A stretch of DNA of 64,000 bases from Selaginella moellendorffii (lineage: Eukaryota; Plantae; Lycopodiophyta), in contig NW_003314272.1 in NCBI RefSeq assembly GCF_000143415.4, positions 1,212,184 to 1,276,183 of the forward strand, given 5' to 3'. Below, piece by piece: positions 503 to 24,050 of the stretch (its first letter is position 1; every line of letters begins with the position of its first letter). The translations under genes and the position numbers were made by a program. The notes under the pieces were generated by a model. It worked only from the letters and a program-made list of their open reading frames with translations. It did no database searches and was not told the origin of the DNA.

Positions 503-1260
503 ATGCAGGGATGCGTCCTCAGCGAGGAGCAGCGAGCACGGAGCCTAGGCGCTGCCAAGGCGCGACTGGCTAGGAAATCCATCGGCGCTGGCGCGCATTT
601 GAATAAGAGGTATCGATTTTGTTAGCTTTTGCTCTCGAAAATGTGATGAGAGATCGCCTTGACAGGAAGGAGGTGTGCGGGGTAAGGCCGCCTCTCGTGG
701 TTGTGAATGTGAAAGGTGCTGTGTGCGGGGGGAAAGCAGAACTATCCACTGTTGGTCCCCATACTTCATTGGAGGACCTCGACGATTTTGATGATGACGC
801 TTTCGAGGGGATTGATAGGCTTTGAGGAAGGAGGACGCTCGCGATGGAGGTTCTGGTTCATGTCAACGTATCTCCGGAAGCTCAATGTGTCCCAAAGGGA
901 TGCAGCGGTGAGCGACATTCTTCTGATTGTTGCCGGGCCACTATTTGAGAAGCTCGCGGATTTAGAAGTAGCTCCAGCAGCCATGGATTGCCTCTTTTAG
1001 GTTGACTGGTATTGTAATCACATCAATGATGTTTGGCTACTCTGACTCTGGAAAGGACGTGGGGAGATTATGTTTTGCTTAGAAACTGTTCCAGATGCAG
1101 GAAAAATATAAGAAGTTTCATCAAGGCCTTTCTAATGTAATTCCCTTGGATGATTGGAGGTGCCATCATCCAAATCATTGATTTTTTTCTTCTCCTTAGT
1201 CACTTCTTCCCACAGGTGGACAGACAAACTTATGGTAGCCAAGAGCAAGATGAGAACACG
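503..1260 (+). pseudogene. Degenerate SRS2-like (UvrD/Rep family) helicase pseudogene, 5' part; may extend to ~2500
   Basis: ATG 503 gives MQGCVLSEEQRARS.AAKARLARK, then acidic DLDDFDDDAFEGIDRL and YLRKLNVSQRDAAVSDILLIVAGP (UvrD Q-motif and start of Walker A). The GSGKT part is deleted and stops/frameshifts follow. Confidence 0.55.
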
Positions 1261-3781
1261 TGAGAAAGCAATGTGTACTTATCCAGATTCTTGAGTGTAG
1301 TTAAGGTTACAGGGTGATGCTGCTGGCTAGTGGTGGATGCCAGGCACAAGTCAGATCTGTCACTAGGCCAAATTGCAAGGCAAAGTAGAATCAGTTAGAT
1401 GGGTTTGCTAGGGTGGCTGCTGTCAATGGCCAATACATCATTGGAGTATGCTCTATGACCAATATAAAATTAATTTTCAATTATAATCCTGCTGAAGGAG
1501 GTGAAGTTTGCTCTCTTCCTCTTTGTGATTGTGCAAGAATGACTCATTGTTTTACAGAGAAAAGAGGAGTATAGCAATTTTATTTTATTTATTTGGAAGC
1601 TCGTATTGTCATGAGAGCTATCTTAATCTTTCTAGTGTGTAAGTGGAGATTCACAAGATGTTATCATGAGATAGGGGGTGTTGGATTAAATGGTATGTTG
1701 GATTGGTTGTTAAAATATGGCTTGACTGGTATGTTTTAAGTTTTAAACTTAGATCTCAACTCATATTTTTATAGGTGGAGTTTATGAATCTGGAATGCCA
1801 ACTACTGCATAAGAAGTGCCAAGAAGAGGAGAAAGGATGTAAATTTCTCATATGAACTTAGCAGAGTCGACTTTTGAAATTTCATTAAAGGAGTCTTTGG
1901 AAGTTTATAACCCATACATCTGGTAAATGATCCTTTTTTCCTTTTCCTATTTTTCTTTCTTTGTATTCTTCTTTTTGTGATAGAGTTTTCTTCTGCTGGT
2001 TTCAAGTGTGTTCTACAGCAATTATATATAGATCCTTGGGAGGCACCACCACTTTTGAAAGAGCTTGACTAGATGGAACTTGTTTCGCTGCTGTGGAGTG
2101 GAGAGAACTTGATTGTGAGCAACTGGATAGACTATCTAGGTTGAAGCAGCAGGTTCAAGAGCATGTGCCAAATGAAAGGGACGATGGGGATGTCTCCAGG
2201 AGCGGACCTGGTTCAGATGTACACATACGCTCAGTGCTTCTTTATGTGTTGCTATGGTTAGTGTTCATCATTTCATACACATGTTTTATTGGGGGAATAA
2301 GGCACCTTTGAGTGTCCTTCAATAGAAATAAGCTCCTTGGATCTTGGCAAGCATTTCATGCTACTTCTAGGAGCAGCTTCCAAGTGCTTGATATGGCTTG
2401 GAGGCAGTGTTGACTGCAGTTGTGGAAGAACAGTTCTACAGAAACGCTGCAAAGAATTATTTGTGGTTCTTGATTTCATATCAAATAAATCTAGCAAGGA
2501 ACCAATATCAAGGAAAGGAGATTAAACTAAATTATAGATACATTGAAACTTTCAATTTATAATATAGTTAGAAAATAATGTACATACATTTTTATATAGT
2601 AATATCATTCACTAGATGTTAAAATACTAGTTTACTTAAATGTATTCAAATTAGTTAAATTCTAAATATATAATAAAGCATACTGTACAATTATTATATT
2701 AATATAAATTAGCACGTATTCATTAATTAACTATACATCTATTTTAAATATTTTTCTCAGAGACTACTTTATAGTTTGCAAGTACCCTGCAATATCACTA
2801 ATAAATAGGGTATAGTTAATTATAACTATTGTAACAATAATAATTGTAAACTATATTAATACATTAAGCTAACTATATTATAATATAGCTAACTAATCAT
2901 AGCTAATTTAATTCCAGTTCTAATTTATTTAATCATAAAAGAAATATAGTTAAAAAGATCTGGTAGGGTCTCTCTCTGCAAAAGGCTTTCTTTCAGTAAC
3001 TTCAAGATGTATAGGATTTCTCATAAGGCGGAGTTCCTGTGTTAGCATGTTTGCAGCTGGAAAAGAAGATAGAGCTAATCTAACATTGCACATTGGGAGT
3101 AATTTGCAAACATCCACTAATTTAAAAAGATTCTTCTCTCATATCTTGTCTATCTCTTCCTGGTACTTGTTTAGCACCTTTATGCCACTACATGCTACCA
3201 ACTAATTCAATGTCACTTTCTACCATTATGTCAATTGTGCAACTACTTTGACTAGAATTGCTTTATTGAAATAAATCACAGATCATATAACTTAGGAAGG
3301 TGCTCAAGGAGCTCAAGACACTCAAAGTTGGAAGGCACTCAAGCTGCTGAAGATAAGGGACTCAAGGCACTCAAGGTGATTAAGACAGACATGTATGTTA
3401 GATCATCTTATGGGTGTTGTTGGTGGTGTTTAAGGGGCACTATGTCACAGGCCTTCAACCCTCATGCTCCCCAAAACCAAGATTTGCAAGGCAAGCCCAA
3501 AAGATTAATGAAGTGACATAGCATGAGCAATAGAGCAATTGAAGTATCAGAGTGGAGAGTGATTGAGCCATAAAGGAACCTGAAAGAGCAAGAATCTAGA
3601 TTTATGCACAATTATCCATTCAGATTAAGCAAAGGGTTATGCAACGCATATTGTAATTCAAAAAACAAAACACTTCAATTTAATTAATTAAAAACATTTA
3701 GTTTAGAATTAATTTAATTAATATGAATTAAAGTTGATATTTTAACTTAAATAAGTGTGATGAAACATTAAGCTATTTAAT

Positions 3782-5672
3782 TTAAATATTTTTACATATA
3801 TGAGTCGAAACTACTCTACAACAGCAAACATGTTCTTCACCAAGAGCAAGAAGGATCGTGGTCTTCATATCTGCAGGCGCCAATGCATGAACTGCAAGTT
3901 CCTGTAAAATTTGAAGCTTCCGCTGCCTGTTCCAGCAAAGTCTCTCTGGAAAAATCCCCAACAGGTAAGCAAAGCTGAGCCCAAGGGAAAGCCAGTCATC
4001 TCGACAGCAGTACTCCCCACCTTCATCAAGCACAGGAGAGCGGAACATAACAGTTCCAACCTCCTCTCTCATGCTATCGTCCCAGTGAGCAGCACAGTCG
4101 AAGTCGTTCAAAACGAGCCTCTGGTCTCCAGTTCCGTGTTCCATGACGATGAAATTGCTCGGTTTGATATCCCTGTGGAAAACTTTGCGATGATGCAGAG
4201 CTCTCACCGCCTCCGACGCTTCTCTCCAGCACTTGGCAATCTGTTTCGCAGTTGAGACGTGCTTCTTGCTGAAGGGGACACCCACTCCCTCCAGCTCCAC
4301 AAATCTGAGACCCCGGCCTGCTCCATTCACTCGACCATGTCCGATCATCTTCCGTAAGTATCTGCAATCAGATGAGTGACCCAAGAAGTGCGCCCGGATA
4401 TCAAGATCGATGTAGTTTTCAGAAGACACCTTGACAACGCTGGCCAATCCTGCTGTTGCAAAGACGCAAGACCTGGGCCCTGAAGCCAGCACGCTCGAAA
4501 CTTGAACGCTGCCGGTTTTGCTTTCATAGACGAACTCGACTGGGCCGTAGCAGTCAGGTGCCACACTTCTGAAATACTTGACCAGTGAATGGAAACCTTC
4601 AGGTGGTGCGAAAGGAAGTAACTCCTGGAAGCTAGCACTGTGCATACGAGATAACAAAGCCTCTGGCACGTCCATGTCTTGCACCGGCTTTATAGACCAG
4701 TTTCTTTCGATCCCAAACTCGTTATTGATCAAGCGCGCCATGTCGATCAAGCACACTTCCCATAGCCCAGCCTCTGCAGTCATCTGACCGCTTCCCCTTT
4801 GGAAGCCAGGAGCATATTCTAGCAGCTCCAAGCTTCCTAGATCATCCTCGCCATTCTTCCTGATGTGAAACTTGAAAAAAAAGACAAATTGGACACGAAT
4901 GATCAATGCAGCCATACAACTGTAGTTGCCCACCCTGTTTTTGTTGTAGTTGAGAACATAGTTAAGCAGCTGGCTGAGGCTGTCTGAATTCGTGGCAATT
5001 CCATCTGGATCATCGACACTCCCATGGGACCATGTAACCTGCACGTCCAATGGAATCACCTCGTTGCGGTCGATGATCACCTGCACATCCGGAATGACGC
5101 CAAATATTTCAACACGCCCTTGGTCGCTGACAGCAGCTGCCCTTGCAATTGCGAGAAGGTAAGGGTAGTACCTTCTTTCGTGCAAAGTCGACATAAAAGC
5201 TGATAGATTTGGTGAGTCCCCGAAGAGGTGTAGCCACAACCAGCTAAGAGCAGCTGCAACACGAAAGCTTTGAGTGCCAACGAGCTCTGTCACAAGAACA
5301 CATCTTGTCTTCCCTTGAAAATAAGACGCCTTCAACTTCTTGGAAGGTCGTAGCGGTGATGAGAAGTACGGCAAGGCAGACAAAGTACCTGCAAAACCGA
5401 ACACTCACTAAGACTCTCGTGTCTAAGGTATGCCATGTGCTCATACCTTCTGCTTGAGCTGCACTCGGCTGAGGAATGTAAACGAGGTGATCTTTAGCAA
5501 ACACTGTGTCGTCGTCAATGACAGAAACCCCATCCACTTCAAGGGCACCATGAAGCCCATACCTCTCCAACTGCTTGTAAATTTTCTTTGCCAGCAGCCC
5601 TGCTGGAGGAATTCGCACCTTGATTACCTCCGTGCTATCGTTGGCTCGCACAATCGTTACTGTCGTCACCAT
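3782..5672 (-). CDS. Crinkler/CR-like protein: small N-terminal header + PD-(D/E)xK-like domain + atypical protein kinase (~610 aa; exons 5672-5447 and 5388-3782)
   Basis: 58-nt intron (AAG|GTATGA...TTTTGCAG|GT) joins the 5244-5678 and 3782-5404 ORFs in frame (AQAE-G-TLSAL). Kinase motifs: LASGPRSCVF, VVKV, HRDIKPSN, NDFD, GTVMFRSP, RDDWLSLG. Middle domain has IPDV...PLDVQ...QLLNY. Confidence 0.75.
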
Positions 5673-7031
5673 ATGCACATCTGTATCCTAGAAAGTGCCT
5701 TTGCACGGCGTGCAGGCTTCGATTCGACTCGCGCTTCTCCTAGAACATCATCGTGCGATCGGCGGGCGAGATCTTTGAATGCTCAAGAACCCTAATCCTA
5801 AAATTAGCATTTGTACATAATACCCGCGGGCATCGGTTGCAAATCCCCCAGCCGGTGTGCTCCCCGTTGGGAAGGGCACTCCAACGGGGTGTAATACTGT
5901 ATACAACAACTGAAAATCTGATTTGATATTTTTCTAAAAAAATGTGAAAAACAATATAGTTTATATGAGAAATATAAAACCACGTTATAATCTTGTTAGC
6001 TTTTATTATTGTATAAAATGCATTATTATTGATGTCATTGTTGACACTTGAAACTAAGACAACGCAAGAAGATCACTGTCTGGAGCAAGGTAGAAATTGG
6101 CAGCCATTCACAGGGATGCAATGCAAGCTTAGATATTCTAGATAATTTTTGTTTACATCTATTTAATTTTCTGTTCACTATCTATTTTCAAGCTCTTAAT
6201 GATAATTACTTATGAAGTTTATGGTTATTTAATTGTGACAATATTTCTTACATTAATTAGGCTAATTTTGTATTCATTGTCATATGAGTCATATGCTAAC
6301 TCATTTTTTCACATATGCCCAGTAAGTAGTAACCATGGGCTTTACCACATAAATCCATTGCTCCTAAAGGCCATCAGTACGACAATCAATTTGGGCAAAA
6401 TGTTTTCTAGCCTTTAGTGGGGTTTTTTCTTCTTGGATGTGAGTTCTAGTACATTTTTCTCAGACATGTATGATCAGCCCCTTCTGAAATAATATGACAT
6501 GATAGAATCCCCACTTGATACTGAATGCCACTAACGCTGATGTGGTGTAGCATGTTCTGAAGAATATGCTAACCAGGTGGATATGAGTTTAGGGTAACAT
6601 GGCTAGTGGATGTCTAACAAAGGAGGAGCAATAACAAAGGAGTAAGTCTCCAACCATGGTGACGGTTGCAATTGCTGCCATTCTTCCATTTCTTGTTGAC
6701 CTATGCTCTTCCTTATCTCCTCTGGCCATTTCAGACACCTGGATCACAATAGCCTCTCGGTCACCAAATCCAAAGTAAGTGTTGTGTTTAAAAAGGTTGT
6801 ATGTTGTGTTTAATGACATGTATGTGCCACTGGCTCAATAGCGCAGAGACAAGGCAATAAAACACGCAGCTCCTATATTTTATTTGCTTTTGCTACACTC
6901 CATTGGTGCAATCTGGGACAACAGGTATGTGTTCCCATAAAGTTTAGTATTGTTTTGGAGATATCTAATGCATTTTGTTGCAGGCGATGAAAACAAAACT
7001 TAGAAGTAGAGCAAAATGAGTTTGAGATCCA

Positions 7032-7510
7032 TTGGCCGGTCTCACAGACCGTGCAAGCAAGCTCACAATAGACCTTGAAGGATCCAATTTTAACCGGGGA
7101 GTGCAAGTGACAGTGAGTCTTAAGTCTGCATCAACCAGCACACATACTGAGACATCTGTGGTGCCACATTTATCAAACTGCAACAAACACCATAACACTC
7201 AGTGTAAGCCAATTCCTTCCAAGGTGTGTGTAAAATGTGGTCGACACATGAAGTTGTTTCTATCAAGGACTGCGAAGCATTCTAACATGCCACTTTTCAA
7301 ATGCTTGAATAAGGTGAGTTTACTATTCGTATAGATTATGAACTTACAGTGCTCTTCCAAGAGTGCAACAACTTTGAGTGGGTTTCAGATTGCCTGAAAA
7401 GTGGAAGTCCGAGTCTAATAACCACAATAAGAAGAGGTGGTTGTTTTAGATGTGGTGCTTTAGATCACTGGATACAAGACTGTTCATATCCTCCCGCAAA
7501 GGATATGTAG
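7032..7510 (+). pseudogene. Gene remnant encoding a GRF-type zinc finger followed by a CCHC zinc knuckle
   Basis: CVKCGRHMKLFLSRTAKHSNMPLFKC, a short GT-AG intron, then ECNNFEW and CFRCGALDHWIQDC (CX2CX4HX4C, 7442-7483). Exon phases do not join cleanly. Confidence 0.5.
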
Positions 7511-9249
7511 AGTTCATATGGTTTCACAGTATGCCAAATGAAGCCCCTCCTGAACGTAGAGCACTACCCAAATGAGTAGATTCACAACTGGAAGCAGCAA
7601 ATCCGCCACCAGCAGAGTCGATAAAACAAGAAATGGTGGTTTCACCACCTCTGCCTGAGAAAAATGATTATTCGTAGTACCAATGTAAAGTATAATATTT
7701 ACTTTGTAGGACTCTTTTTTATATGTAATATCAGGACTTGGATTTAAGATTCTGAAGCATTGTGTTCCCCATGAACTAATTTAAGCCTCGACAGTATAAA
7801 ACTTCACATTCATAAAAGGTTTATAATTAGACATCGCACCAAGGCATCAAATTTGCCATATATGTAGCTAAAATAACTACTTGGAGGCCAACCTCATTTA
7901 GCAGCTGAAGCACAAACATAAGCTTCCTGGATGCGATTGCCACTTTCAGCTGCTCCTCGTACTGCATGAAGGAGGACAAAGTCTGCATCTCCTTTAGCAT
8001 GTTCCTTGATGCAGGCAGTAACATACCCATACCCTCACTCCCATTTCCATTTTCCTTGTGAATTATGTGCATGATAGCCACCATGACTTCCTTTATTGCA
8101 GTACGGCAAGCTACTGCTTCACCAGAGTCTGCGATGGACTCTGACGACACTTCAACAATTTCCACATGCCGTTTCGGAGGGCTGAGAGGTGGGCCAACCT
8201 CAAGGTCAACCTCAACATAAACAATACAAGCCTTGATTGACTCTGTGGACTCACTCTTGAGATAACTCTTGGGAGTTTGCAAGCGTCTGCATGGGAGTCT
8301 CTCAAGGCTCCAGCAGATGTTGTAGTGTTCACCACTTCAAATGGGACAGTCGTAGGCAAATGAAATGGAGTAGGTGGTACACCTGGGCTGAAGGGAAAAT
8401 CCAACTGTCAGCCAGCAAAGGGTGTGTAGAACTCTGCATAAAGATCCATAGGGGGAATATTTTTTGAGGTGAGAAAGTTGGTACCAAGAGTTGCAGGCAT
8501 TACCATTGGAGACATGGGGACAACTTGTGTAGGTCATGCAGATTGGCCTGGTGGGAGATAGCCTTCCCAACCGTTTTTGGTGGGATCCTATGATAAAGCT
8601 TCTATTGAAATGATGTTGACTTTCCCTACAACATTCATTGTTGGGAAGGTTGAAGCAAATGCAGCACCACAAGATCAATGCAGCAGTGGAGATGTTGAAA
8701 GGCTGCATATGATGAGAGGCAGCCTCTAACCCTAGATGTCATTCATCCTCTTAACTTTGAAGTGGAAGGAAACTAATATATACATGTATAGTGCAAAAGT
8801 TTGCCTAATATTTTCAATTTTCAATGATAGGCTTGCTTTGCTAAAGTGATTATTAACTTCAACTTCCTGGAAGTATTGTATTATGCTTCAAAACACGAAA
8901 TTAAGAATTTTAACTGTATCACAATAGTTAGTACTTCTACAGGCTACAAGACATAATAAACTCCAGATGAACAAATGTCATTAAAAATAACATTATATAT
9001 ATATTAATGCATCAAATCCAAAATAAAATGAACAATAGCTTATTCTAATATTAGTAGGGATAAATTTGTATCTTTGAAGATTTACATTTCACTATTTCCT
9101 TAGCTTTTTAACAACATTGTGAAACAACAACAGAATGATTTGATGATGGTATCAATAAATGCAGGAATGCAAAAGATAGAGTAGTAGTGAATCATAAAAA
9201 CTGAATTATAATAATAATTATCATAATCAGATGCACCATTCTGGGGTTC

Positions 9250-9570
9250 ACTTTCCAGGATATAGATGTGCATATGGCGACAATGGTAATGATTGTGCAA
9301 GCCAATGATGGCACAAGAGGTGATCAAGGTGCAATTTCCTCCAGCAGGGATGCTAGTAGAGAAGATCTACAAGCAATTAGAGAGGTATAGGCTTCATGGT
9401 GCCCTTGAAGTGGATGGGGTTTCTATCAATGACGACAACATAGTGTTCGCTGAAGATTGCCTTGTCTACATTCCTCAACCAAGTAGAGCTCAAGTAGAAG
9501 GTATAAGCACATGGCATACCTTAAACAGTGAGTGTTGGATTTTGCAAGTACTGTGTCTATTTCTCATCAC
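9250..9570 (+). pseudogene. Inverted degenerate copy of exon 1 and intron of the Crinkler-like gene
   Basis: EVIKVQFPPAGMLVEKIYKQLERYRLHGALEVDGVSINDDNIVFAEDCLVYIPQPS matches the 5672-5447 exon. It has a +1 frameshift, acceptor AG changed to AA and CpG->TpG/CpA changes. Confidence 0.9.
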
Positions 9571-9825
9571 TAGATAAATGGTTGATTTCATGTTTACCCT
9601 TTTTCTTTTGGTCTACTTTGTGTGGTTCTTTAGTTGAGCTATAGTGTGCTATGTTCTTTTGACATGCTGTGGGTGTCCGGCATGGTCGTGCCTAGATCTG
9701 GCTCCTTGTTTGGGGTACTCACTATGGCTGTTGTCTTCCATTGGTACTCAACTGGTTATCTTCCCTGTCACTAATAGCCTTGTGCCTTGGATCTGTGTTT
9801 CAATTTGTGTTATGGCCATGGTGGT

Positions 9826-10690
9826 GCACGAGGTGATTGCTGCCAGTGACCCTAAATGAGAGGGTCCAGGCAAGGTCCACCTAGAGAGGAATGAAACAGG
9901 AGGCATAGTAAGAACATAGAAATCCTCTGTTTTCTTTTATCTCTTACTGCTAGTTCCTGAGGAAATCCAACTTAAAGGGTCAAAAAGAAAAGGAATGGAA
10001 TGAATTGTGGGTTGGCTGCCTTTACAGGCCCACAAAAAATAGTGAAAGCAAATCAAAATGCCCAGTGAAGGGAGCACCAAAAAGTGACGTGGCTGATGTG
10101 TATATTACATTACAGACACTTTATAAATTTCATTAGGGGCCATGCTGAAAGACAAAAAAGAGAAAAAAAGTTGGTGGACCATCATGCAAGTGACTTATCC
10201 ATTTTTATTTTTCCTTACCTCCTCATGTGCAACAAGAGATCACAAAATGGTCCTATTGTATCAACTAACAACCGAACAAGATGCCCAGTATCCCTCCTTT
10301 CGATTCCATACTCTATATCATATCAATTCCTGGGAGAATTTGGTAAAGTTGTGTGTTCCGAAGTTGGTGTAGGGTTCTTCCTAGAGCCATGAATATAACA
10401 ACGTTGTCTCATGCACAAGCTCTGCCACCTTTCGTGCCAGGACATGTAAAGGAATTGCACATGTTTTGGCTCTGCAGCGGAGCAGCATTTGCGTTTCAGT
10501 AGGGAGACCGTTTCGCAGCACATTAAATCTGTCCAGCCGAGCACAAAGTAACAGAAAAGAGAGAGTTATGAGGGCCTATCGTGAGTTTGGGAGAGTTAAC
10601 TTTCTCAATTAGAAGCTCTTGGATCATTTGTCTTGCACTAGCCAGAGGCTCTGGGATAGGATTTGGGATTTCCTCAGTGGCCATGACGAT
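9826..10690 (-). pseudogene. Collapsed copy of the 11609-12485 expansin (coding fragments 9826-9962) with its upstream region (~9980-10690)
   Basis: Blocks match expansin exon 3 (ctgccagtgaccctaaatgagagg), intron 1/exon 1 (gagaggaatgaaac...cttactgctagttcctgagg) and the 12600-13340 upstream sequence. Confidence 0.8.
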
Positions 10691-11608
10691 TGCGGAAGTT
10701 GAATATTTTCTTGCAAAATGTTCCTGCTCCCATTAGGGATGGAAATCCCCCATCCTCTAGTTGCTCTGATCGCTACCGGACGGGTGATAGACTAGTTACA
10801 GATAAAATTTAATTTATAACGATGTTTTTTTTTTGGGAAGTCGAAATAACATATGTAGCTATGAAATTAGTTGGCCGTATTTGGGAACTCGTACACAAAC
10901 GAGTAAGGCAGCTGCCCGAGGTGGTTGATGGTCGTGAGATCGTAAATGAGATCCATGAGGAGATTGGAGAGGCTGAAGCTTCAAATGGGAGGAGCTTTGT
11001 GATATACCAATGAAAAACTAGATTAATTTCCTGGATGTCAATTTCGAAACTTTTTAGCTCCTCCACAGCCACACTTTGGTCTTTGGGAGTTGGAAGGCTC
11101 CTATACTTACATGGTCATGGAAAAATTATTCAACATCATATAAAGGTTTTTTTTAATGTGATGAAGCCAATTTCATAGGATAAATGAGGTTTTTGAAAAA
11201 ACAATCTATAAAAGAGGATATTATTGGTAAAATAGATGTTTTTGTAGGAAGTATGTTTCAAACATGTTTGAAAGAAGTTTATTGTGAGAAGTAAATAGTA
11301 TTTTTATATTAATTTGATGCATGACCATTTGTAATTATTTTATTTTCTTGTAAAATAAGTGGAAATATGCAAAGTTATTATTTGGAATAAGATTTTATTA
11401 ATTGTAAAAATTAAATTTTGATTTAAAAACAGCATATACATGGAATCTTCTCCGAAAGCCGCGGAAGCAAAAGAATGGGGTGATTCTCGCCATAGCCCAC
11501 CTCCTGTGTTTTCCTTTCCACGCTCGGCTCTACAGGAAAATCGCACAAACCGTATAAGCTCCCTCTCTCACTCGCTCGCTCCATCGATTGATCGATCGAG
11601 ATAGAGGT

Positions 11609-12485
11609 TTAGAACTGGCCACCACTGTAGGCTCTACCAAATTGCCAGTTCGCCGGCGCGACGTTGAGCGAGGTGACCTTGCGGCCATCGCTGCCGGTGA
11701 CCCTAAACGAGAGGCTCTGACCGCCAAGGTTGCCCCCGATCATCCAGTTCTGGCCCCAATTCCTTGCCATGGGCATCCAATTGGTGTTTGAGCCTTTGAT
11801 TTCCACGCCCACGACATCGCCGCTGCCGCCTACATTCTCGATCAGCACCAGATTGAAGAAGGTGTGCCCATTGATCGTGTAGTGGATGGCACCTTGCCTT
11901 TGGCACGGCACTCTAGATCATCACAGCACATCACAGGCGATTTTAGGAGGGGCTCTTGCGGTGGATCGATTATCTGTCTCGCTTACCTGCGGTACTGGAG
12001 GAGGACGTGACCATAGGGAATGCTGGCGATCTGGGAGAAGGCCGGCTGCGAGAGATCAAAGTGCTGCTTGGGCGGATCGCACCAGCCGCCATTGCTCCCC
12101 GGAGGACAGAGATTGGTAGCGGTGACGACGGTGGAAGGATTTCTCGGGAGGCATCCCGTGCCCGCGCAGCGAATCTCATAGCAAGCGCCGCAAATGTCGC
12201 CGTTTTCGAAGAGCGGGGTGCTGAGGGCAGTGGTGATGTAGCCATAGCCGGCGCTCAGCTGGTTTCCATAGCCGCAAGCTCCATCTGGAGAGGAATGAAA
12301 CCGGGGGCGTGGTAAGAACAGGGGAATTGAATTCTCTGTTTCTTTTATCGCTTACTGTTAGTTCCCGAGGCATCGCTTCCTCCATAGTACGTCGCGTGAG
12401 CATCTAGCCATCCGCCATCGCCGCGAGCTCCTGGCATTGCCGCGATGAGAGCTAGCAAAATCCAAGCAGTGGCAAGCGCCGCCAT
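11609..12485 (-). CDS. EXPA: Alpha-expansin (243 aa; exons 12485-12356, 12284-11987, 11912-11609)
   Basis: Signal peptide, [40 protein letters not shown]; canonical GT-AG introns keep the frame. Confidence 0.95.
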
Positions 12486-14118
12486 GGATTCAAATGTGTT
12501 TAAAACAGAGCTTCCAAAGCTAGAAGATTGATCGATCGAGAGTGGAAGATCTGGTCAAGGCCTAGAGATTGGAGAAGATCCAACTGACGGATCAGAAGAA
12601 AAGAGAAAGAAAAGGAATGGAATGAGTTGTGGGTGAGAGTTGGCTGCTTTTATAGGCCCGGGAAAGATAGTGAAAACAAATCAAAATGCCCAGTGAGGGG
12701 ATCTATTGTAGCTCATGTGGGACTACTGTATGAAATGAAAAAGAGAGAAAAAAAAGTTGGTGCACCAACATGCAAGTGACTTATCCATTTTTTTTTCTTT
12801 TTTTTCTTTTCAACGAGCCTCCCCATGTGCAATAAGAGATCACAAAATGGCCTTATCATATCAACGAACAACCGAACAAGATGCCTAGGATCCCTCTTTT
12901 GGATTCCTTAAGATTTACACTCTATATCATATCAGAAGTTGGTACAGTTGATATATATTTGTATGCTACAAAGAAGGGTTTCTCCCACAGCCATGATTAT
13001 AACAACGGTAGCTCTGCCACCATTTTACTTGGGTGTCAGGACATGTAAAAGAGTGAGGAATTGCACATGTTTTGGCTCTGCAGCGGCGCAGCGGTTGCAT
13101 TTCGGTAGGGAGACCGTTTCGCAGCGCATTGAATCTGTCTAGCCGAGCACAAAGTGACAGAAAAGAGAGTTCTGGGGCCCCATTCTGAGACCGGGAAACT
13201 GGGTCAGTCACAGAGTTTCCAATTGGAGAGTTAACTTTTTTTAGTTCTCAATCAATTTCTGACACAAAGTCTAGAGAGCGATCGAAGAGAGAAGCTTTGA
13301 ATCTTGGATAGGACTGGGCATTTCGTCGGTGGCCATGACATTTGCTGTCTGACGTTTGATGAATCTTTTCATGCAACATGGTCTCCAACCCGAAAGCTTG
13401 TGGGGAATTGGAAGACACCCTTTGGAATCCGAGGGCTTTGAAGTTTGTGTGGCCGGTTTGGTGTGCAGTGGGGTGGTTTGTTGATTCTGTTTTCATGGGT
13501 ACCAGACGTGTCTGTAGCGCATTTGACAAACTTGCAAAACAGCAAACAGAAGGTGAGTGCGACGCACAATCACGCAGCCTGTGGGAAAAAGAGAGAGAGA
13601 GAGAGAGAGAAAAGAAGAACCAGAAAGCGATCACATGTGCTATCACATGGATGAGGTATTACCAATTCTTTATGCAAATTTCATGAAATCCCCGGAATCG
13701 AATCGTTTGGGGGCGAGAGTTAACGAGGCGAAGAATCATGTGGTGAGTTTGGTCAATCCCATGTGTTCGCTGCACTAACTGGTGGTGTTGTTTCAACAGC
13801 CCAGCAGCAGCTGCACACTGCTGCACGCCGCACTGCATTGCACTGCACACAACTGTGTAGTGTTGTTGTCACAAACCACGAACTTTTTCTTTTTCTTTTT
13901 TTTTCTGATCACCCATGTTCAATGAATATATAGCAACAACCAGACTGCCTTTAAGTGCCTCTTTGACTATATAAGCAAAGCACCTCCAAGCCACCCCAAC
14001 ACCATCAATTCATTCATTGGTTTCCTCCTTTTAACTCTCCTCTTGGGCAGCTCCGGTCACATTCTCTTCTCCCAAGTTTTTTCGTTGATTCTTTTCGCAT
14101 ACACATTTTTCCAAAGGC

Positions 14119-15063
14119 ATGGCGAACAAGTGGGCTGCAATGATGAAAGTCTGTGCGGTGTTTGCCGCTGCCGCGCTCATGCTCCTGCGGCGAGTGCATG
14201 GAGATGGAGGCTGGCTGGACGGAGCGCACGCAACTTACTACGGAGGGAGCGATGCGTCCGGGACAAACAGTGAGATCCCTTGAAAACCTCCCCTGTTCTA
14301 TTCTCTTCTGGTTTCTCATTCGCATTCTCTTTCCTCTCCTTGCCAGATGGAGCTTGCGGCTATGGAAACCAGCTGAGCGCCGGCTACGGCTACATCACCA
14401 CCGCCCTGAGCACTCCGCTCTTCGAAAACGGCGACATCTGCGGAGCGTGCTTCGAGATCCGGTGCGCCGGTGGCGCGGGATGCCTGCCGGGCAATCCCTC
14501 CACCGTCGTCACCGCCACGAATCTCTGCCCCCCAGGGAGCAACGGTGGCTGGTGCGACCCGCCCAAGCCCCACTTCGACCTCTCGCAGCCCGCATTCAGC
14601 AGGATCGCGAGCATCCCGAATGGCCACGTTCAGCTCCAATACAGGAGGTAAGAGAGAGCGCTCACTCACTGCTTAACTCACTCACTCTCACTCAGCTGAC
14701 TAAATGACTTGAGTCGTTGACTAGTTCACCTTTTGACTTGACGATGACTATCAATGCAGAGTTGCGTGCGATAGGCAAGGGGGGATTCGCTTCACGGTCA
14801 ACGGCCACACCTTCTTCAACCTTGTCCTGGTGGAGAACGTTGGCGGTAGCGGCGACGTGGTGGCAGTGGAGGTGAAGGGCTCCGCCACCGGGTGGCGGCA
14901 AATGCAGAGGAACTGGGGCCAGAACTGGCAAGACATGGGCGACCTTAACGGCCAGGCGCTCTCCTTTCGGGTCACCGGGAGCGATGGGAAGGTGGTCACG
15001 TCCATGAATGTGGCTCCCGCGGACTGGCAGTTTGGGAGAACTTACAGCGGCGGCCAGTTCTGA
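14119..15063 (+). CDS. EXPA: Alpha-expansin (251 aa; exons 14119-14269, 14347-14647, 14760-15063), divergent from the previous expansin
   Basis: Same expansin motifs (HATYYGG, GACGYG, HFDLS, NWGQNW); GT-AG introns in the same positions. Confidence 0.95.
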
Positions 15064-15289
15064 TCAGCGAGAGATCCACGAACACAAATTCCATAGCTCT
15101 AGGGAGATTGGAGAAAGCGTGATTTTTGAAGAGGAGGTGACGATACTGGCACCCACTTCGCAGCGAAACCCGATTCTATACACATCCATTTGTATCAAAC
15201 AAAGCGATCAATGACACGTCGATTTATTTTATCAGCGCTCTTCCAATTCCAAGGTTTTGGAAGACAAACCTTCCACCCTTGTTGATATC

Positions 15290-16466
15290 CTAGAAGGACG
15301 CAACGTCTCCCACTTCGGTGGTGATCCTGGAGTTCACGACCGAGCACTTCTTCCTTATCTCCCCGTTGGCTCTCGTCTTCCACTCGATGTTTCCCATGTT
15401 GATCATCGACTGCGCGAACATGGAGCGGAACGTTGGCGGGTTCTGAGCGAGCGAGTTGATGAGATTGGCAGCGTCCGGGTCGGTTCGGAGCACCGCGTCC
15501 GACGAAAGCAGCCCCCTGTTGGCCTCGAGGTTCCTGTAGTAAGCATTGTCGAAGCTAAACTCCGAGTTCCTGTCCAGCGCCACCGTCGGGCTCGGGTTTG
15601 CTCCCTGCGGGCAAATCCGCCGGAGCTCCTCACGGTACGTAGCGTCCAGGCTTGGGTCGGGACGTCCGGTGTTGTTAAAGTTGTAAACACGAGTCTCGAC
15701 GAATCTACACTTCGCGCGACCAATGGTGTGTCCGCCTGTTATTGCAATGTTAGTGGAGAGTTCTAGCTTCAAGAGAAGCTTCTTACCGGAGAGCAGCACG
15801 AGGTCATGAACTGACAAGCCTTTGCCCCTGAAGATGTCTCTCAGCCGACTGAACGAGGAAGCGGGACCCGGTAAGCTGTTGGCTTCTGTTCTGCTAGAGA
15901 TTCGTCCGTCAAGGCGACCCGTTGGCACCGTGTAGAACATCCCTCCAAACTACATCAATCAGACTCGGCGATGAGCAACAAAGTCAAAAAGGGAAAATCA
16001 TACGTAAGTCGTCGCGTCCCTGGCAGCAAAAGCGAGCACATCCGCACAGCTCACAACTCCCGGGCACACAGCCTCCAGGCGAGTTTTTGCGGCCTCGATA
16101 ATATCGAAACCACGAGCAGAGTTGTTGTTCCCGAGCGCGAACATCTCGACATCTCTGCCATCAGTAGGAGTGGATTCCAAAAGTATCGATCCATCGCACC
16201 CCTGGACAAATGAGTCACATTCGTTACAACTCACATACATAAAGCTTAGACGATGAACTTACCTGGACAAAGCAGTCATGGAAGAACAAGCGGATAATCC
16301 CGGCTGGTGCTGTTGGATCCCAGTCAGCTGCACTCTTGACAGTGGCCGCGACTATCTGTTCAGCGCTCGGACAAGATCGAGCATAGCTGTGAAGAGAATC
16401 GGGAGCAGACGCAGAACAAGCTGCTGCTACGAGGAGTGCAAGGCAGAGAAGTTGCATTGAAGCCAT
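15290..16466 (-). CDS. Class III secretory peroxidase, 4 exons
   Basis: Signal peptide, [19 protein letters not shown] (distal His), [22 protein letters not shown] (proximal His), FDNAYY, GEIRKKC; short C-terminal extension. Confidence 0.95.
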
Positions 16467-17087
16467 AGAGCTAATGCAAAGCCAAGCTTCTGAGGATATA
16501 TATATACATACGCCACACACCATGCACACGCAGGCGCCCACCCGAGACTCCGGGGGCTGCTCAAGGAAGTCTGGTTGCTCTGCGTGGTCGTGGAGACACA
16601 TACACCATCGGCCGCCAGCTGTGGACCGAATAGAAAATGAGTGTGCTGTCCTTGGTACATGAACTTGTAAGACGAGCTTGGCTTTTGCGTTGCTTTCTCG
16701 ATTGACGAATATTAGTGTGTCTAATGACCTGTCCTTACTCTCAGCTGGGCCGATGGAAAGCTTTTTAGACCAGCTATCTCTCTACAATAAAAGGTGTATA
16801 CATACTTTGTTCGCGTGCATGTCCACGTCAAAGTGCAACGGGGACAGGGGTGGTGGTGTGGACATGGGAATTTCGGCGTTACCTTGTTGTCTTTGCTCGC
16901 CCACTTATCCATCGCTCCAAGTTCCGTGTCGAGACCTTGTTGTTGGCTTGAATGAACGTACGATACGCTTTAGCGTATCGTGTGGGCCGCATTCTTGCTC
17001 TTGTAGCCGCAGTCGAGAACTGCGAGGCGTCATCTTGTTGACGGCTTGTGCGGTCATCCTTTTGCCTTCGTCAACTTCGTTCCCCCA

Positions 17088-17330
17088 TGAATCTCTGTCC
17101 CCCGGGACGGCGGCTGGTGCGAGCCCACCAGCAGGATCGCGATCATCCCAAACGCCACGCATCCACACAATTTAATCAATAATGTCGTTGGGTGAAGGGC
17201 CACACCTGCTTCAACCTTGGCGGCAGCGGCGACCTGGTGGCGGTCGAGGTGAGGTGGCCATTGGTCATGTCCTTGAACGTTGCGGACTGGCAGTTTGGGA
17301 GAACTTACAGCGGTGGCCAGACCACGCTCT
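17088..17330 (+). pseudogene. Heavily deleted copy of the 14119-15063 expansin
   Basis: Ordered fragments gaatctctgtccccc, ggctggtgcga, cagcaggatcgcga, ggccacacctgcttcaaccttggcggcagcggcgac, gcggactggcagtttgggagaacttacagcgg match exons 2-3. Confidence 0.85.
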
Positions 17331-17481
17331 AGAGAGTGATTTTTGAAGAGGATCGAACCCCGATTCTATCCGTATGAAATATTTTCACAGTTTACAAAGT
17401 GATTCAGTGACACATTGATTTATTTTTCCAGCGCTCTTCCAATTTGCCAAGACAAACCGTCCACCCTTGTTGATTGATATC

Positions 17482-18676
<1,195 letters not shown>

Positions 18677-19362
18677 AAGAGCGGAACTGCGAATGATGAA
18701 AAACCAAGCTTTATGAGGACATATATACGCCACGCACCAGACACATGCCAGCGGCCACCCAAGACTTTAAGTCCAGTTTGACAACTATGGGGGCTGCTTG
18801 AGGAACTCTGCTTGGTTTGCGTGGTCATGGTGGACGTGGGAGCCACACAAACAGTCGGCTGCCAACAGTGGACCGAATAGAAAATGAATTTGCTGCAGCC
18901 TTTTTTGATAATTGTGAACTGGTAAGACGAGCTTCGGCTTTCATTTGCGTTTGTTCTTGGACTGATTTGCCTGATGACTTGTCTTTCTTAGCCTCGTAGA
19001 GCCATGTAATCTTCACACCGACACGCCAAGTCTGTACAGCCAAAGATTTATCTTTTAGGATATGCATATGGTACTGTACGATACCGCGAAGATGTTGAGG
19101 AAAGTTCAGCTAGTGAGGTGTAGTCACTCTAGGCAAAAGAACGCTTTTAAAGCGAGCTGGGCCGGTAGCAGCTTTTTAAACTAGCTGCCTCGTCACTGGA
19201 TGGTGTTCTTGTCAATCACTTCGGCTAAGATGCTTACTTACTTTCGCTTTGTTCACGTGCCTGTCCTCGTCAATGAAGGGCAACTGAGTGCTGAGCTTGT
19301 GGTCGAAAGTATTGCCCCGTGCTATTCATGCGGCCGATATAATAGCTCGAAGAGAATCAAAA

Positions 19363-22300
19363 TCATTCAAGGGATGAATTCGACCAGTACTCTGCTACTA
19401 ATCGGCAAAACAGGGAGGATTTGTTCCCCAACAGTTTTGCAGGTCTGTCGAACTCCATCAGTAATCCTGAAAAGATTCACTCAGAGGTGTAAGTATTATC
19501 GCCCCGATGGGTTCTGCGTACCATCTTCAAGCGCCAGAACCATGTCGCTACTAACCACAGTTGGGATTCTGTGAGCGACTGTGATCGTTGTGCATTTGCC
19601 AAACTCGTCTCCGAGCACTTTTTGGAGAACTGCGTCGGTGGTATTGTCGATGGACGCCGTTGCCTCGTCAAGCACCAGGATCTGGCTGCGCTTTAAAAGC
19701 GTACGAGCCAAGCAAAACAATTGTCTCTCTCCCACGCTCCAGTTCTCGCCGTCGTCTCCAACTATGAAAATGTAGCTGTCACTCTCGGCTTCAAACTAAA
19801 GAGAGCCTTACCAAAGGACTCCAGCTTGAGATTTTTTTCTCTCACACTTTCTCCAAGTTGGCATTTATCCAAGGCCTGCAACATACAACAACAGTCGTAA
19901 AGAAAACGATGAAATAAAATCGATCGACCTCCCAAATCTTTTGATCAGTGTACTTAGAAAACGGATCCAGGTTGAAGCGGACGGTGCCACGAAACAATGT
20001 TGGTTCTTGAGGGATTATACTCACCCTAGATCTCAAGGCTGTAACGCCAATGGTCATAATATCAACTCCATCTATAAGTATTCGTCCACCGGCTGGATCA
20101 ATAATGCGAAAGAGCGCACTAATGAGAGTAGTCTTTCCGCTGCCAGTCCGTCCTACGACTCCGACTTTCTGACCACTTTCAAAAGTACACGTGATGCCAC
20201 GAAGCACGAGAGGTGCGTCTGCACTGTATCTAATCTGGAAAACAGGTATGGTGGAAAAAGAACTATAATGAAAGTGCAATACCTGGAGGTTGTGAAGTTC
20301 TACTTTCCCCTCACTGGGCCAAGACGGCCAGAGTCCAGTTTTAGAGGAAGTTTCAACAGGTAAAGATAAGTACTGCTTAATTCGTTCGACCGAAATAATC
20401 ATGTTAGCCAGGTTGCACTGGTTTTGCACGCTCGCAACCTGAGAATTGTTTAAAGACAGACCGTAAGAAAGTACAAGCCCAACAAATCCTGGGAGTAAAG
20501 AAAAGAGATCAGTCAATTCACGAACACGAACGATCGTACCGCTCACCAGGAGAAATTGTACCAGGGGGCAAAATAACCATAATCAACGCGGAGGAGCAAA
20601 GAACAGCAGACCACAGCGACTCCAGCCTTTGAATAAGCCACTCTCTTGCAGCAAAATTGTGGAAGAAAGGACTCGTATTAGTGTCAATCATATCCAGAAT
20701 CTTCCTCGTGAAATCCTCCTGCTTGCGGAAAGCTCTTATTGTAGTAGCACCTGACATAGCTTCTCCGAAGTAGTTCAAAATCGGTGCCTTTGTAGTTCCG
20801 TTGATTCTCATCAGCTCACGAGCAGATGCCAAGTTATAAACCTGGCCTTGACACAAGATTTAAACAGTCAGTTCTCAGAAACCAAATGCTCTGTTACCAC
20901 CTGTAAGAGTCTGTTGATGTACATCATGGGGACAACGATCACCAGAATCTGCCATGTTACAGAAGATGTCATTCCCAAGTTAGCTAAAGCACTCAGGAAG
21001 GCCGAGATTGAAAACCCAAAGGAAAACGGAATATCGAGGTCCAAGATGCTCAAGTCCACTGAGAGCTGGCAAGTCGAAGTTAGTTTAAGTAGTGAACAGG
21101 AAGAAACCATTACCCGACTTAGTATTCGGCCGCTTGGTGTGGAATCGAAAAAAGACATTGGTGCTGAGAATAAAGAATCCATTGTGCTGTTGAAGAACGA
21201 CCTCGACGCTGCCAGTCCCATAATAACAATGAGAACCGATCGAATGAAGAGGAAAGCTCCCGTTGTCAACCCAATTGCAGAATACACACCTATGAGTTTT
21301 CCTGTATTTGTCTCTGAACTTTCAACCTCAGAAGCCATCCACCAGTTAGAAGCCATCTGACCCGAGAGAAAGACAATGTATGAAAGTGTGGATAGCCCGT
21401 AGTAAAAGAATCCGTTGGCTTGCTTCATGTAGTCCAAGTAGGCAGCATTACCAAATTCTTTCTTCTCGTCCTTGGTTAGCTGATTAAACTTCGAAGCTTC
21501 AGGTGTGCAATCTTCACCTTTCCGATGCTGAAGACCCGTCTTCTTCGATACGGTTGTCGTGCCTCTCGCGTCCAAAGTGGACATTACATCCTTGTGTGCC
21601 ATCACGAGATCCCGAAACACGGCGCCTCGCGCAAGAAGGTCATCATAATTTCCAGACTCCAAAACTTCTCCATTCTGCATCACCTGCATGAGCCATCAAG
21701 CGATGATAATCGCGGAAAGCACAAGTACAACACTCACCAAGATGGCATCAAACTTTTGAAGAAACTCGACTTGGTGCGTCACAAGGATGACAGTCTTCTG
21801 AGACAGAACTCCAAGAATACAGTTCTGCAGGGCATCACAAGTAAGAATTGAAAAGCTGTACAAGGTCAAGTACCTTGAAAAGCGAAGATCCGGTTTGTGC
21901 ATCCACGGCACTAAACGGAGGTAAACAGACGCGTCTTGATAAACTGCACGAGCAAGTTGAATGCGTTGCTTCTGCCCGCCGCTCAAGTTAAGTCCCCTCT
22001 CTCCGATCTCAGTCAAGTCACCGAAAGGAAAGCTTTCTATGTCCTTGTCCAATTCGCAAGCTTTCAGAGCCATAGCATAGCGATTATTGTCCATATCCAT
22101 GCCAAATAAAACGTTGTCCCTGACTGTTCCAGATTGTACCCATGCTACCTGAGCCACGTACGCTATACTACCAGAGACTTTAACCTGCAAGTGAAAGGAG
22201 AAACATCCAAAGGCATTAGTATAAGTATTTTTTTCTTCTAATTATTGTACCTTTCCGTGTAGAAGGGGAACTTCTCCTAGGATAGAGAGAAGTAATGTCG

Positions 22301-24050
22301 ACTTCCCAGAGCCAACCTCACCGCACACTGCCACCCGTGATCCGTTGTGGACGGTCAGGTTTATATCTTTCAGCGTAGATGCCTCAGCTTTAGCCTTGCC
22401 TTCGTCCGGGTCCCAGCTAAGGCTGGCGTTGTGCATATGAATGTCGACGCCATCGCCACTAACGTCTCTTTCGATAGCTTTAGGATCAAGCTCTTCGTCT
22501 TGTAAGAAAGTTGAAACCCTTCCGAGGGAAACTCGTACTTGAACGATTGCGGAAATCACTTCCGGGACCAGCCTGATCGGCTCCTGGATTATCCTGAAGG
22601 TGGCCAGTGTCGTAAACACGTTGCTCGCATCCAGCGGGTACCCCGTAAGCCAGCAAACGATGAAAGTGCTCGTCGAAACCAGGACCGGCAGCAGCCAGAA
22701 GATGAAGGCGTTGTAAGTTTTGCGGTACTGGACTTTGGACAGCCACACCAGCTCTTCGCCCCTCAGCTCCTTGATTCGGGCTTTAAACATCTCTTCCCAA
22801 GCTTGCAGCTTCACAGTCTTCATGTTTCGCAAAATGGCGGAAGTAGCTCTCATTCTCTTGTCCTGAGCACTCATGAGGCCGTTCTGGAACTTCCGCTGGA
22901 GCCTGGCCATGGGCCTGTTGGCCAGCATGGAGAGTCCTATGACCGTGAGACCTGCGAACGCTGGCGCCGTTCCAACCGAATGCACGAGAATTGCCCCTGC
23001 CATCGCGATCTGAAGCGGAGTAGTCCACACAACATGGACCCAGTAGCCGAATTCTCCTATCCTGTAAGCGTCCACAGCCATGTAGCTTATCACCTCGCCT
23101 GTCGCGTGAGTTCTCCGAGCGAGGCCCGAGAGCTTGAGCTGCTTGCTGTATAAAACTCCCATAACCGCGGATCGCATTCGCATTCCCAGCCTCTTGCTTC
23201 CGAAAAGCCACTGCCTCTGGGAGACCGACTCCACCGCCTTTCCCAGGAACAAAACCAGCACCAGAAAATACCCCTGTGAGACGTTGCCACCCTTTGCTGT
23301 GCTCGCCACGAAAGTTTTGAGGACGAGAGGACCAGCCGTCACAGTGACACATTTTCCCAATGCGTAGACGCCATTCTGGAGAAAGTTTTTCCAGTAGCAC
23401 CGTCCGAGGGTCCAAAACAAAGATGGCTGGCTGCTGCTGCTGTTGCTGCTACTCCAGAGCTCCACAAAAGCCTTGTAATTTGTGTCTGCTCGATCCTCTG
23501 GAGCCACTCGAGGCATGTCCTGCTCTTCCAAAGTCTTTCTACTTCCCAGAGCTAGCAAAGGATTGAGCCACAGGAAATAGAGACGGCTGATCCATCCAGC
23601 TCCACTGATGAGGCAAACATTCTTGCTTCGAGCTTCGTCGTGTAGAAGAAGAGGCTCCTGGAGCCTAGCGCGTGCCTCTTCTTCGCTCTTCTTCTCTTTG
23701 ATCGCCAAGAAAAGCAAGCTGATTGGAAATGCCGCAATATCCAGCACGAGCTTCCAGAATGCCGGCCCTGTTTCCTGCTGTGATCGATCACTAATCCTCA
23801 CCACGGCCACGGCCGCCAAGCCCGTGGCAATCGCCGCGGCGCAAACCCTGACGTATTTCCCCGGAATCCGCCTCAGAGCGGCCGATGCAGCAAGAACCAG
23901 CCATGCCGATCCCTGCATTGTCGCGGGAATCCATCGCAGCGCCGGCCAGAGACGATTCTCCGCCAGAACGATCGCGAGATAGAGAAATCCCGCGGTGGCT
24001 GCCAACGTACCAGTGCAGATTCGAAGAAGCGCTTCCATCACCGCCGACAT
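19363..24050 (-). CDS. ABCC/MRP-type ABC transporter, multi-exon; frameshifting deletion in NBD1 Walker B (possible pseudogene allele)
   Basis: TMD1, NBD1 ([26 protein letters not shown]), TMD2 ([13 protein letters not shown]), NBD2 ([47 protein letters not shown]), end [13 protein letters not shown]. The LDD of LLDDPFSAVD is missing at ~21919. Confidence 0.9.

What the first reader, a model, noticed from the sequence alone, without database searches (positions are those of the whole stretch)
3782..5672. Crinkler/CR-type header-nuclease-kinase gene in a land-plant genome
Seen: two separate ORFs splice in frame through a 58-nt intron into ~610 aa. The protein has (i) a ~75-aa compact header on its own exon (VTTVTIVRAN..EVIKVRIP...LEVDG...LVYIPQ), (ii) a middle domain with E...IPDV...PLDVQ...SQLLNY followed by hydrophobic strands, and (iii) a kinase with HRDIKPSN intact but DFD for DFG and RDDWLSLG in subdomain IX. 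It has no signal peptide or TM segment. The long ORF is intact and keeps its CpGs inside an otherwise decayed region. Established: Crinkler/CR effectors of oomycetes and fungi combine a ubiquitin-like header with PD-(D/E)xK restriction-endonuclease-fold domains and/or atypical kinases, and relatives have been reported in some early-diverging plants. Inference: this is a plant-encoded toxin/defence-type effector (PD...DxQ variant nuclease plus active kinase) rather than an ordinary plant kinase, possibly from a lineage-specific modular family.
Basis: partly seen in the sequence, partly recalled or inferred. Interest (0 to 1): 0.85.

Follow-up and report, generated by a model that had tools for sequence, protein, structure and literature searches.

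The report
Disarmed Crinkler-type nuclease-kinase in spikemoss
A spliced, transcribed spikemoss gene joins a predicted restriction-enzyme-fold domain to an unusual kinase, as Crinkler-type toxins do, but its DNA-cutting site has eroded, so it likely works as a disarmed kinase rather than a toxin.

Summary
The gene is real: it is Selaginella moellendorffii SELMODRAFT_409812 (610 aa). The 58-nt intron is seen in 7 stranded RNA reads and in contigs of three more runs. The middle domain models as a restriction-endonuclease fold (best match BpuSI, Z 9.2). The kinase belongs to a small algal/protist/lycophyte family, not a standard plant family. So the Crinkler (CR)-type architecture holds. The 'active PD..DxQ nuclease toxin' reading does not hold well. 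All 10 full-length relatives have E..D..ExK. This copy keeps 9-10 of 26 family-conserved nuclease positions but 26 of 28 kinase positions. Its Gln is one base from the Lys still present in the sister copy. A second, 91-nt alternative intron, seen in contigs of two studies, removes the catalytic Asp strand and puts a stop at codon 149. Best reading: a CR-type module whose nuclease has likely decayed while the kinase is kept. The header's ubiquitin fold is suggested but unproven, and sequence kinship to CRN8 could not be tested. CR proteins in land plants are already reported, so this is a new variant of a known kind.

The parts
5447..5672 (-). Exon 1 coding part: 75-aa header, likely a ubiquitin-like (beta-grasp) fold
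   Evidence: ESM hits to ubiquitin-like families score 0.76-0.81, lead only; model pLDDT <50; no Pfam or PDB hit.
5389..5446 (-). Intron 1, 58 nt, GT..AG, phase 1
   Evidence: 7 junction reads in 3 RNA runs; contigs of X1, X5, X14.
3782..5388 (-). Exon 2, to the stop codon
   Evidence: RNA cover from about 3805 to 5820.
5330..5350 (-). Basic motif RPSKKLK (residues 89-95), a candidate nuclear localisation signal
   Evidence: A K-K/R-x-K/R motif lies in the first 135 residues of 9 of 12 family members, just before the nuclease domain in most; function untested.
4556..5311 (-). Restriction-endonuclease-fold domain (residues about 102-353); E146 and D176 kept, D190 for Glu, Q192 for Lys, N209 kept
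   Evidence: Model; VIA Z 9.2 to BpuSI; profile matches; conservation counts.
5039..5041 (-). Codon 192, CAG (Gln), at the family's invariant catalytic-motif Lys
   Evidence: Lys in 10 of 10 relatives and in P0005. No other letter in contigs of X1, X2, X3, X5 that cover it.
5081..5171 (-). Alternative 91-nt GT..AG intron inside exon 2, covering residues 148-179; splicing it out gives a stop at codon 149
   Evidence: Joint in contigs of X1 (depth 4.6) and X5 (7.68); unspliced form in X1 (6.8), X2, X3 and raw reads.
3845..4549 (-). Atypical protein kinase (residues about 356-590): K395, D405 for the family Glu, HRDIKPSN, NDFD, D540; no GxGxxG loop
   Evidence: Pfam Pkinase E 4e-15; Pkinase_fungal 30.1 bits, cut-off 24.1; 26 of 28 family positions kept.
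9249..9558 (+). Decayed inverted copy of the header exon, intron 1 and the first bases of exon 2
   Evidence: 83% identical; 8 of the gene's 11 CpGs are TG/CA/TA in the copy; out of frame after the start codon.

Best explanation
This is a spliced, transcribed Selaginella gene with the Crinkler-type layout (header, predicted restriction-endonuclease fold, atypical kinase) whose nuclease site has eroded while the kinase has been kept, so it likely works as a kinase carrying a disarmed nuclease domain. Shown: gene structure, transcription, family membership of both domains and the unequal loss of conserved residues. Predicted: the nuclease fold. Inferred: the ancestor was a nuclear nuclease-kinase conflict protein; this copy no longer cuts DNA; the kinase still phosphorylates itself or a partner, with the pseudo-nuclease as a scaffold or nucleic-acid-binding module; and the 91-nt alternative intron lowers the full-length product further by giving a stop at codon 149.
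For: Family core E..D..ExK..N is invariant in 10 of 10 relatives. This copy keeps 9 of 26 nuclease-domain positions (10 with E146 re-registered by eye) against 26 of 28 kinase positions, Fisher p 9e-6 to 3e-5. Eight closer relatives keep 14-16 of 16-21. It also lacks the 8-10-residue F-x-x-E segment before the Asp. Q192 is a one-base change from the Lys in P0005. Where the two sister copies differ in the kinase, the window copy is nearer the family at 12 of 16 sites, P0005 at 3, with 1 tie. DFD/DYD/DLD is the family norm, not decay. The fold is REase-like. The mRNA is spliced and on the right strand. The alternative intron removes exactly the helix and Asp strand.
Against: No activity was measured. 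The kinase has Asp for the otherwise invariant alpha-C Glu (10 of 10) and no glycine-rich loop. Two distant relatives show the same bias more weakly (P0052 p 0.015, P0117 p 0.038), so part of it is faster divergence of nuclease domains in general. Working nucleases with Gln at this place exist (BglII, BstYI; recalled, no call). The sister copies differ at 30 of 600 residues with an excess of CpG-type changes (12 of 20 transitions, 23% expected, p 4e-4), which fits methylation and loose constraint. Read depth is low (74 reads in about 27.6 million records). The 91-nt joint was not listed in the raw RNA reads and rests on contigs whose RNA status is a guess.
Confidence: 0.5

Rival explanations
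1. A transcribed relic on its way to becoming a pseudogene: both domains have lost their role, and the frame is intact only because decay is recent.
For: It sits in a CpG-depleted stretch between a decayed gene copy and a zinc-knuckle remnant. The gene's own CpG level is lowered (0.69). Differences between copies are CpG-biased. A third allele in X14 has several further changes. A frameshifting cryptic intron is tolerated. Expression is low.
Against: The lineage sits on a long branch (1.36-1.76 changes per column) yet keeps 26 of 28 kinase positions and an open 610-codon frame in two copies. The nuclease erosion is shared by both copies and so is older than their split.
Confidence: 0.25
2. An active nuclease-kinase toxin or defence protein, using a D-x-Q variant site.
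For: E146, D176, an acidic residue at 190 and N209 remain. The fold is intact in the model. The basic motif could take it to the nucleus. In CR proteins the REase domain is thought to carry toxicity (PMC5289972, section 11). An intron that deletes the site could be a safety switch.
Against: Lys is invariant elsewhere and the Gln is private to this copy. 16-17 of 26 conserved positions are lost. No large expansion was seen (three lineages). No signal peptide is apparent.
Confidence: 0.2
3. An ordinary plant kinase with an unrelated N-terminus, or a contaminant or mis-joined gene model.
For: Pfam names only the kinase. Foldseek found no match at E<=0.001. The closest relatives are mostly protist, algal or unnamed.
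Against: Spliced, stranded transcripts; plant genes around it; a methylation-decayed partial copy nearby; a sister copy on another scaffold beside its own header fragment; relatives share both domains in the same order.
Confidence: 0.05

Closest known systems
CR (Crinkler-RHS-type) proteins with REase + kinase C-terminus (Zhang et al. 2016, read only through PMC5289972); example CRN8 of Phytophthora infestans (PMC3426532)
   Same: Header, REase-fold domain, then an RD-type kinase; basic motif ahead of the enzyme domains; reported to occur in land plants and algae.
   Different: No LxLFLAK motif; encoded by the plant itself; nuclease site eroded; no evidence of secretion or of a large recent expansion; sequence kinship to CRN8 or a numbered CR-REase clade untested.
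Unnamed REase-kinase family found here: SELMODRAFT_420115/423694, Coccomyxa (CAL8466526.1, BDA49441.1), Colponema vietnamica, Ceratiomyxa fruticulosa, metagenomic proteins
   Same: Homologous nuclease and kinase domains in the same order; NDFD and RDD-type motifs; the GF..LV linker helix.
   Different: Relatives keep E..D..ExK and have unrelated N-termini, many of them helical-looking; the beta-rich header was found only in this gene, its sister copy and two fragments.
Fungal DUF6826 / FunK1 (PF17667) proteins
   Same: Best ESM Atlas cluster for residues 110-330 (score 0.93; DUF6826 on 31%, PF17667 on 10% of members); PF17667 passes its cut-off.
   Different: PF17667 matches only residues 451-526 and Pkinase scores higher; no direct DUF6826 hit; 161 shared features, under the tool's 170 mark for same-family hits.
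Type IIG restriction endonuclease BpuSI nuclease domain (PDB 3s1s)
   Same: Fold: Z 9.2, rmsd 3.5, 142 residues aligned.
   Different: 17% identity; no methyltransferase; catalytic Lys position is Gln in this copy.

Membership tests
CR (Crinkler-RHS-type) REase+kinase proteins | REase-superfamily domain followed by a protein kinase domain | tested here: met
   Model and VIA search, Z 9.2 to BpuSI; 14 of the top 20 rows are nucleases I recall as PD-(D/E)xK folds; Pfam kinase.
CR (Crinkler-RHS-type) REase+kinase proteins | N-terminal header (ubiquitin-like or helical) | tested here: inconclusive
   75-aa module on its own exon. The 6 named ESM families are ones I recall as ubiquitin-like, but all score under 0.9; pLDDT <50; no Pfam or PDB hit.
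CR (Crinkler-RHS-type) REase+kinase proteins | Intact PD-(D/E)xK active site | tested here: not met
   D176 kept, Glu to Asp190, Lys to Gln192; 9-10 of 26 conserved positions kept. Met in the relatives, 10 of 10.
CR (Crinkler-RHS-type) REase+kinase proteins | Sequence homology to a defined CR-REase / CR-kinase clade or to CRN8 | not testable with these tools
   Zhang et al. 2016 and its alignments are not held; no CRN sequence came back from searches; none of 20 hits looked up was named as oomycete or fungus.
Classical oomycete CRN | LxLFLAK and HVLxxP motifs | tested here: not met
   No LxLFLAK. The header ends in HLVYIP, but the His is Arg in P0005 and P0029 and Cys in the nearby copy, so the likeness to HVLxxP is weak.
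Classical oomycete CRN | Delivery into another cell, nuclear localisation, cell death | not testable with these tools
   Needs bench work; only a candidate basic motif is seen.
Standard plant protein kinase families (RLK, CK1, CDPK and others) | Many close plant homologues; GxGxxG, DFG and APE motifs | tested here: not met
   Only 3 of 1.84 billion representatives reach E<=1e-30: itself, an unnamed family member and a 1,724-aa protein scored by 24 short stretches that I did not examine. Best PDB kinase E 1.5e-8. The motifs are absent. No named plant kinase was available for the tree.
FunK1 (PF17667) | Full-length match to the FunK1 profile | tested here: inconclusive
   30.1 bits against a cut-off of 24.1, but only profile positions 280-361 of 387.
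Active protein kinase | Beta-3 Lys, alpha-C Glu, HRDxKxxN, Mg-binding Asp, alpha-F Asp | tested here: inconclusive
   K395, HRDIKPSN, D504 and D540 present; alpha-C Glu is Asp405.

The most novel reading that the evidence does not exclude
A lycophyte has tamed a Crinkler-type DNA-cutting toxin into a house kinase: the nuclease is now a pseudo-enzyme, a beta-grasp header was added by exon shuffling, and an alternative intron that cuts out the old active site switches between the full-length protein and a header-only or kinase-only product.
Probability: 0.2. Interest if true: 0.7.

Novelty: new variant of a known kind. Interest (0 to 1): 0.45.

Why it matters
Why free-living eukaryotes keep Crinkler-type genes is an open question (PMC12957317, introduction). 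This locus offers a natural comparison in one plant: a paralogue with the full nuclease motif (SELMODRAFT_420115), a sister copy with the Lys, and an expressed copy without it. That makes 'toxin, tamed kinase or relic' directly testable. It also marks out an unnamed nuclease-kinase family across a lycophyte, green algae, an alveolate and an amoebozoan that Pfam sees only as a kinase.

Tried and rejected
Single-sequence fold of the full protein was useless (pLDDT 33). Foldseek against PDB and BFVD gave no match at E<=0.001. The VIA second look ranked mitoribosomal chains first (Z 7.4-8.2), then BsaXI and Hjc; BpuSI was not among its rows. Word-index homology searches were crowded out by generic kinases and added no new family member. 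Pattern scans of metagenome, viral and prokaryotic contigs returned only generic kinases; none of 237 loci matched the nuclease-domain profile. NCBIfam and PADLOC gave only kinase hits, in NCBIfam all far below the curated cut-offs. A PDB sequence search with the nuclease alignment gave nothing significant. The header gave nothing in Pfam or PDB. One alignment put the Asp in another register; searches agree on D176. No whole genome is held, so family size and dN/dS could not be measured. The careful kinase tree did not finish; quick trees were used, without named plant, CK1, FunK1 or CRN8 kinases. Literature: no paper held names these gene ids, DUF6826, or Selaginella with REase and kinase; some searches gave only general papers or none. 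Zhang et al. 2016 and its supplements could not be read and may already list this protein. Earlier scan findings: none.

Full report
Identity and gene structure. The two reading frames at 5672-5447 and 5388-3782 (minus strand) join through a 58-nt GT..AG intron into 610 codons. The product is identical to Selaginella moellendorffii SELMODRAFT_409812, EFJ30136.1, so the gene model was already annotated, as a hypothetical kinase-domain protein. Raw reads of three stranded RNA runs from one study cover about 3805-5820; 74 reads were laid, all with the first mate on the + strand, which fits a minus-strand RNA, and 7 cross the junction. Contigs of 3 of 4 further runs cross it too. The neighbours are ordinary plant genes: expansin-like, peroxidase, ABC transporter, LRR, PPR and JmjN. 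Contamination is therefore unlikely.

Relatives. A full HMMER search of 1.84 billion representatives gave 1,161 hits at E<=0.001, 34 at 1e-10 and 3 at 1e-30. A standard plant kinase would have far more strong hits (inference). I looked up 20 of the 150 listed hits. Seven carry organism names: Selaginella SELMODRAFT_420115, 429079 and XP_024520586.1, Colponema vietnamica, two Coccomyxa species and Ceratiomyxa fruticulosa. Thirteen are unnamed metagenomic proteins, and none is named as oomycete or fungus. The longer relatives (500-640 aa) share the region before the kinase. A profile built from nine non-Selaginella middle domains scores the query at 30.7 bits against at most 4.8 in 1,000 shuffles, and hhalign gives probability 98.2, E 4e-14. 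In a quick tree of 62 kinase regions, 21 of the 22 family rows formed one branch (SH-aLRT 91) apart from 40 generic kinases; no named plant, CK1, FunK1 or CRN8 kinase was available. The four Selaginella rows did not group together (p-AU 0.031, long branches), which argues weakly against a recent lineage-specific expansion.

Fold of the middle domain. Folding residues 1-355 with a 16-row alignment gave mean pLDDT 60, with 77-89 over residues 101-130 and 211-270 and under 50 over most of 1-96. Against 48,161 PDB representatives the best match was the nuclease domain of the type IIG enzyme BpuSI (Z 9.2, rmsd 3.5, 142 aligned), the only one at Z>=8. Next came two mitoribosomal chains (Z 7.7, 7.5), then DrdV (6.2), HsdR (6.0), Hjc, Vsr and EcoRI; 14 of the top 20 rows are nucleases I recall as PD-(D/E)xK folds. 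Foldseek alone found nothing significant. The ESM Atlas placed residues 110-330 nearest to fungal clusters carrying DUF6826 and Pkinase_fungal (0.93). The REase fold is thus well supported as a prediction.

The nuclease site is eroded. In ten full-length relatives E, D, E-x-K and N are invariant. The window copy keeps E146, D176 and N209, has Asp190 for Glu and Gln192 for Lys, and lacks the F-x-x-E segment before the Asp. It keeps 9 of 26 positions conserved in the nuclease domain (10 if E146 is registered by eye) and 26 of 28 in the kinase (Fisher p 9e-6 to 3e-5). Eight closer relatives keep 14-16 of 16-21; two distant ones show a weaker bias the same way (p 0.015, 0.038). The sister copy P0005 (SELMODRAFT_429077) differs at 30 of 600 residues and still has the Lys; the difference is one base. 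P0005 lies on another scaffold that also holds a header-only fragment two gene numbers away, like the arrangement in this window, so it is probably the other haplotype (inference). P0005 keeps only 10 of 26, so most erosion is older than the split. Contigs of four runs that cover codon 192 show no other letter, so the Gln form is the one seen in those runs. Nucleases with Gln at this place do exist (BglII, BstYI; recalled), so loss of activity is likely, not proven.

The kinase is kept. K395, HRDIKPSN, D504 and D540 are present. Against activity: the alpha-C Glu, invariant in 10 of 10 relatives, is Asp405, and there is no glycine-rich loop. At the 16 kinase sites where the sister copies differ, the window copy is nearer the family at 12, P0005 at 3, with 1 tie.

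A second, alternative intron. Contigs from two runs of two studies skip 5081-5171 (91 nt, GT..AG on the minus strand; depths 4.6 and 7.68), while X1, X2, X3 and the raw reads also show the unspliced form. The skipped piece encodes residues 148-179, the helix and the D176 strand, and its removal puts a stop at codon 149. The database also holds two shorter products of this locus that start at M234 and M278; they would fit such transcripts, but I could not check how they were annotated. The joint was not listed in the raw reads, where the threshold is three reads and depth was 0.5-4.5, and the RNA status of the contig runs is a guess. It may be regulated or may be splicing noise in a relaxed region.

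Header and surroundings. The header has no Pfam or PDB hit. Its six named ESM neighbours (TDP-43_N, GRHL1_C, KHA, CIDE-N, Par3_HAL_N_term, Ubiquitin_GT-1) are families I recall as ubiquitin-like, but all score under 0.9. It was found only in this gene, P0005, P0029 and an inverted, out-of-frame copy at 9249-9558 that has lost 8 of 11 CpGs; other family members have unrelated N-termini. A basic motif precedes the nuclease domain in most members. CpG observed/expected in the gene (0.69-0.72) lies between the flanks (0.37-0.43) and other genes (0.89-1.05), and 12 of 20 transition-type differences between the sister copies are in CpG context against 23% expected (p 4e-4). The locus is probably methylated, which keeps the relic reading alive.

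Comparison with what is known. PMC5289972 (passages and section 11) reports from Zhang et al. 2016 that CR proteins occur in land plants and free-living eukaryotes, have ubiquitin-like or helical headers, and that REase + kinase makes up about one-sixth of their C-termini, with toxicity ascribed to the REase. PMC3426532 (passages) shows CRN8 is an active RD kinase and mentions unpublished CRN8-like plant kinases. PMC6131194 (passages) and PMC11342252 (passages) use the CR-REase classes. PMC12957317 (abstract and introduction) treats the role of such genes in free-living hosts as open. Zhang et al. 2016 itself could not be read, and its supplements may list this protein. No held paper names these gene ids.

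Verdict. The architecture works like a CR REase-kinase protein, and formal membership is likely but untested by sequence. This copy most likely has a disarmed nuclease and a retained kinase (0.5). A decaying relic (0.25) and an active toxin (0.2) remain possible. New variant of a known kind; interest 0.45.

Noticed in passing
window 9249-9860 (+): Out-of-frame, CpG-depleted copy of the header exon; the sequence after it resembles the tail of SELMODRAFT_429079 (P0029), its likely counterpart on the other scaffold.
   Followed up: partly
window 7313-7510 (+): CCHC zinc knuckle (Pfam E 4e-4, just under cut-off) in a CpG-depleted stretch between the gene and its header copy; possibly a retroelement remnant.
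   Followed up: partly
window 1027-2429: Short pieces match, at under 90% identity, abundant transcripts that run on elsewhere; looks like a decayed copy of a multi-exon gene, not identified.
   Followed up: partly
window 4753, 4800, 4848, 4850, 5631, 5636: Run X14 carries a third allele with six other letters, two of them matching P0005's residues; low depth (3.6-4.9), so some may be errors.
   Followed up: partly
window 3819-5758, run X1: A run under a different organism label holds this gene at 99% or more identity; a label error or a very close species.
   Followed up: no
window 9870-18900: Tandem and inverted duplicates: expansin-like genes (about 11.6-12.3 kb and 14.3-15.1 kb) and a peroxidase region repeated at about 2.2 kb spacing.
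   Followed up: no
window 19845-24143, 27859-29451, 35471-39400, 57736-60082, 61715-63469: Ordinary plant genes: ABCC-type transporter, LRR protein, PPR proteins, a JmjN/C5HC2/FYRN protein.
   Followed up: no
window 40001-54000: Second CpG-depleted, mostly AT-rich block (observed/expected 0.08-0.58) with a 100-N gap at 49676-49775.
   Followed up: no
P0024 / P0166 (SELMODRAFT_420115, 423694) and P0032 (XP_024520586.1): Other Selaginella members of the family; P0024 keeps the full E..D..ExK motif, and P0032 is named 'spindle assembly checkpoint kinase' by its source, which looks like an automatic misnomer.
   Followed up: partly
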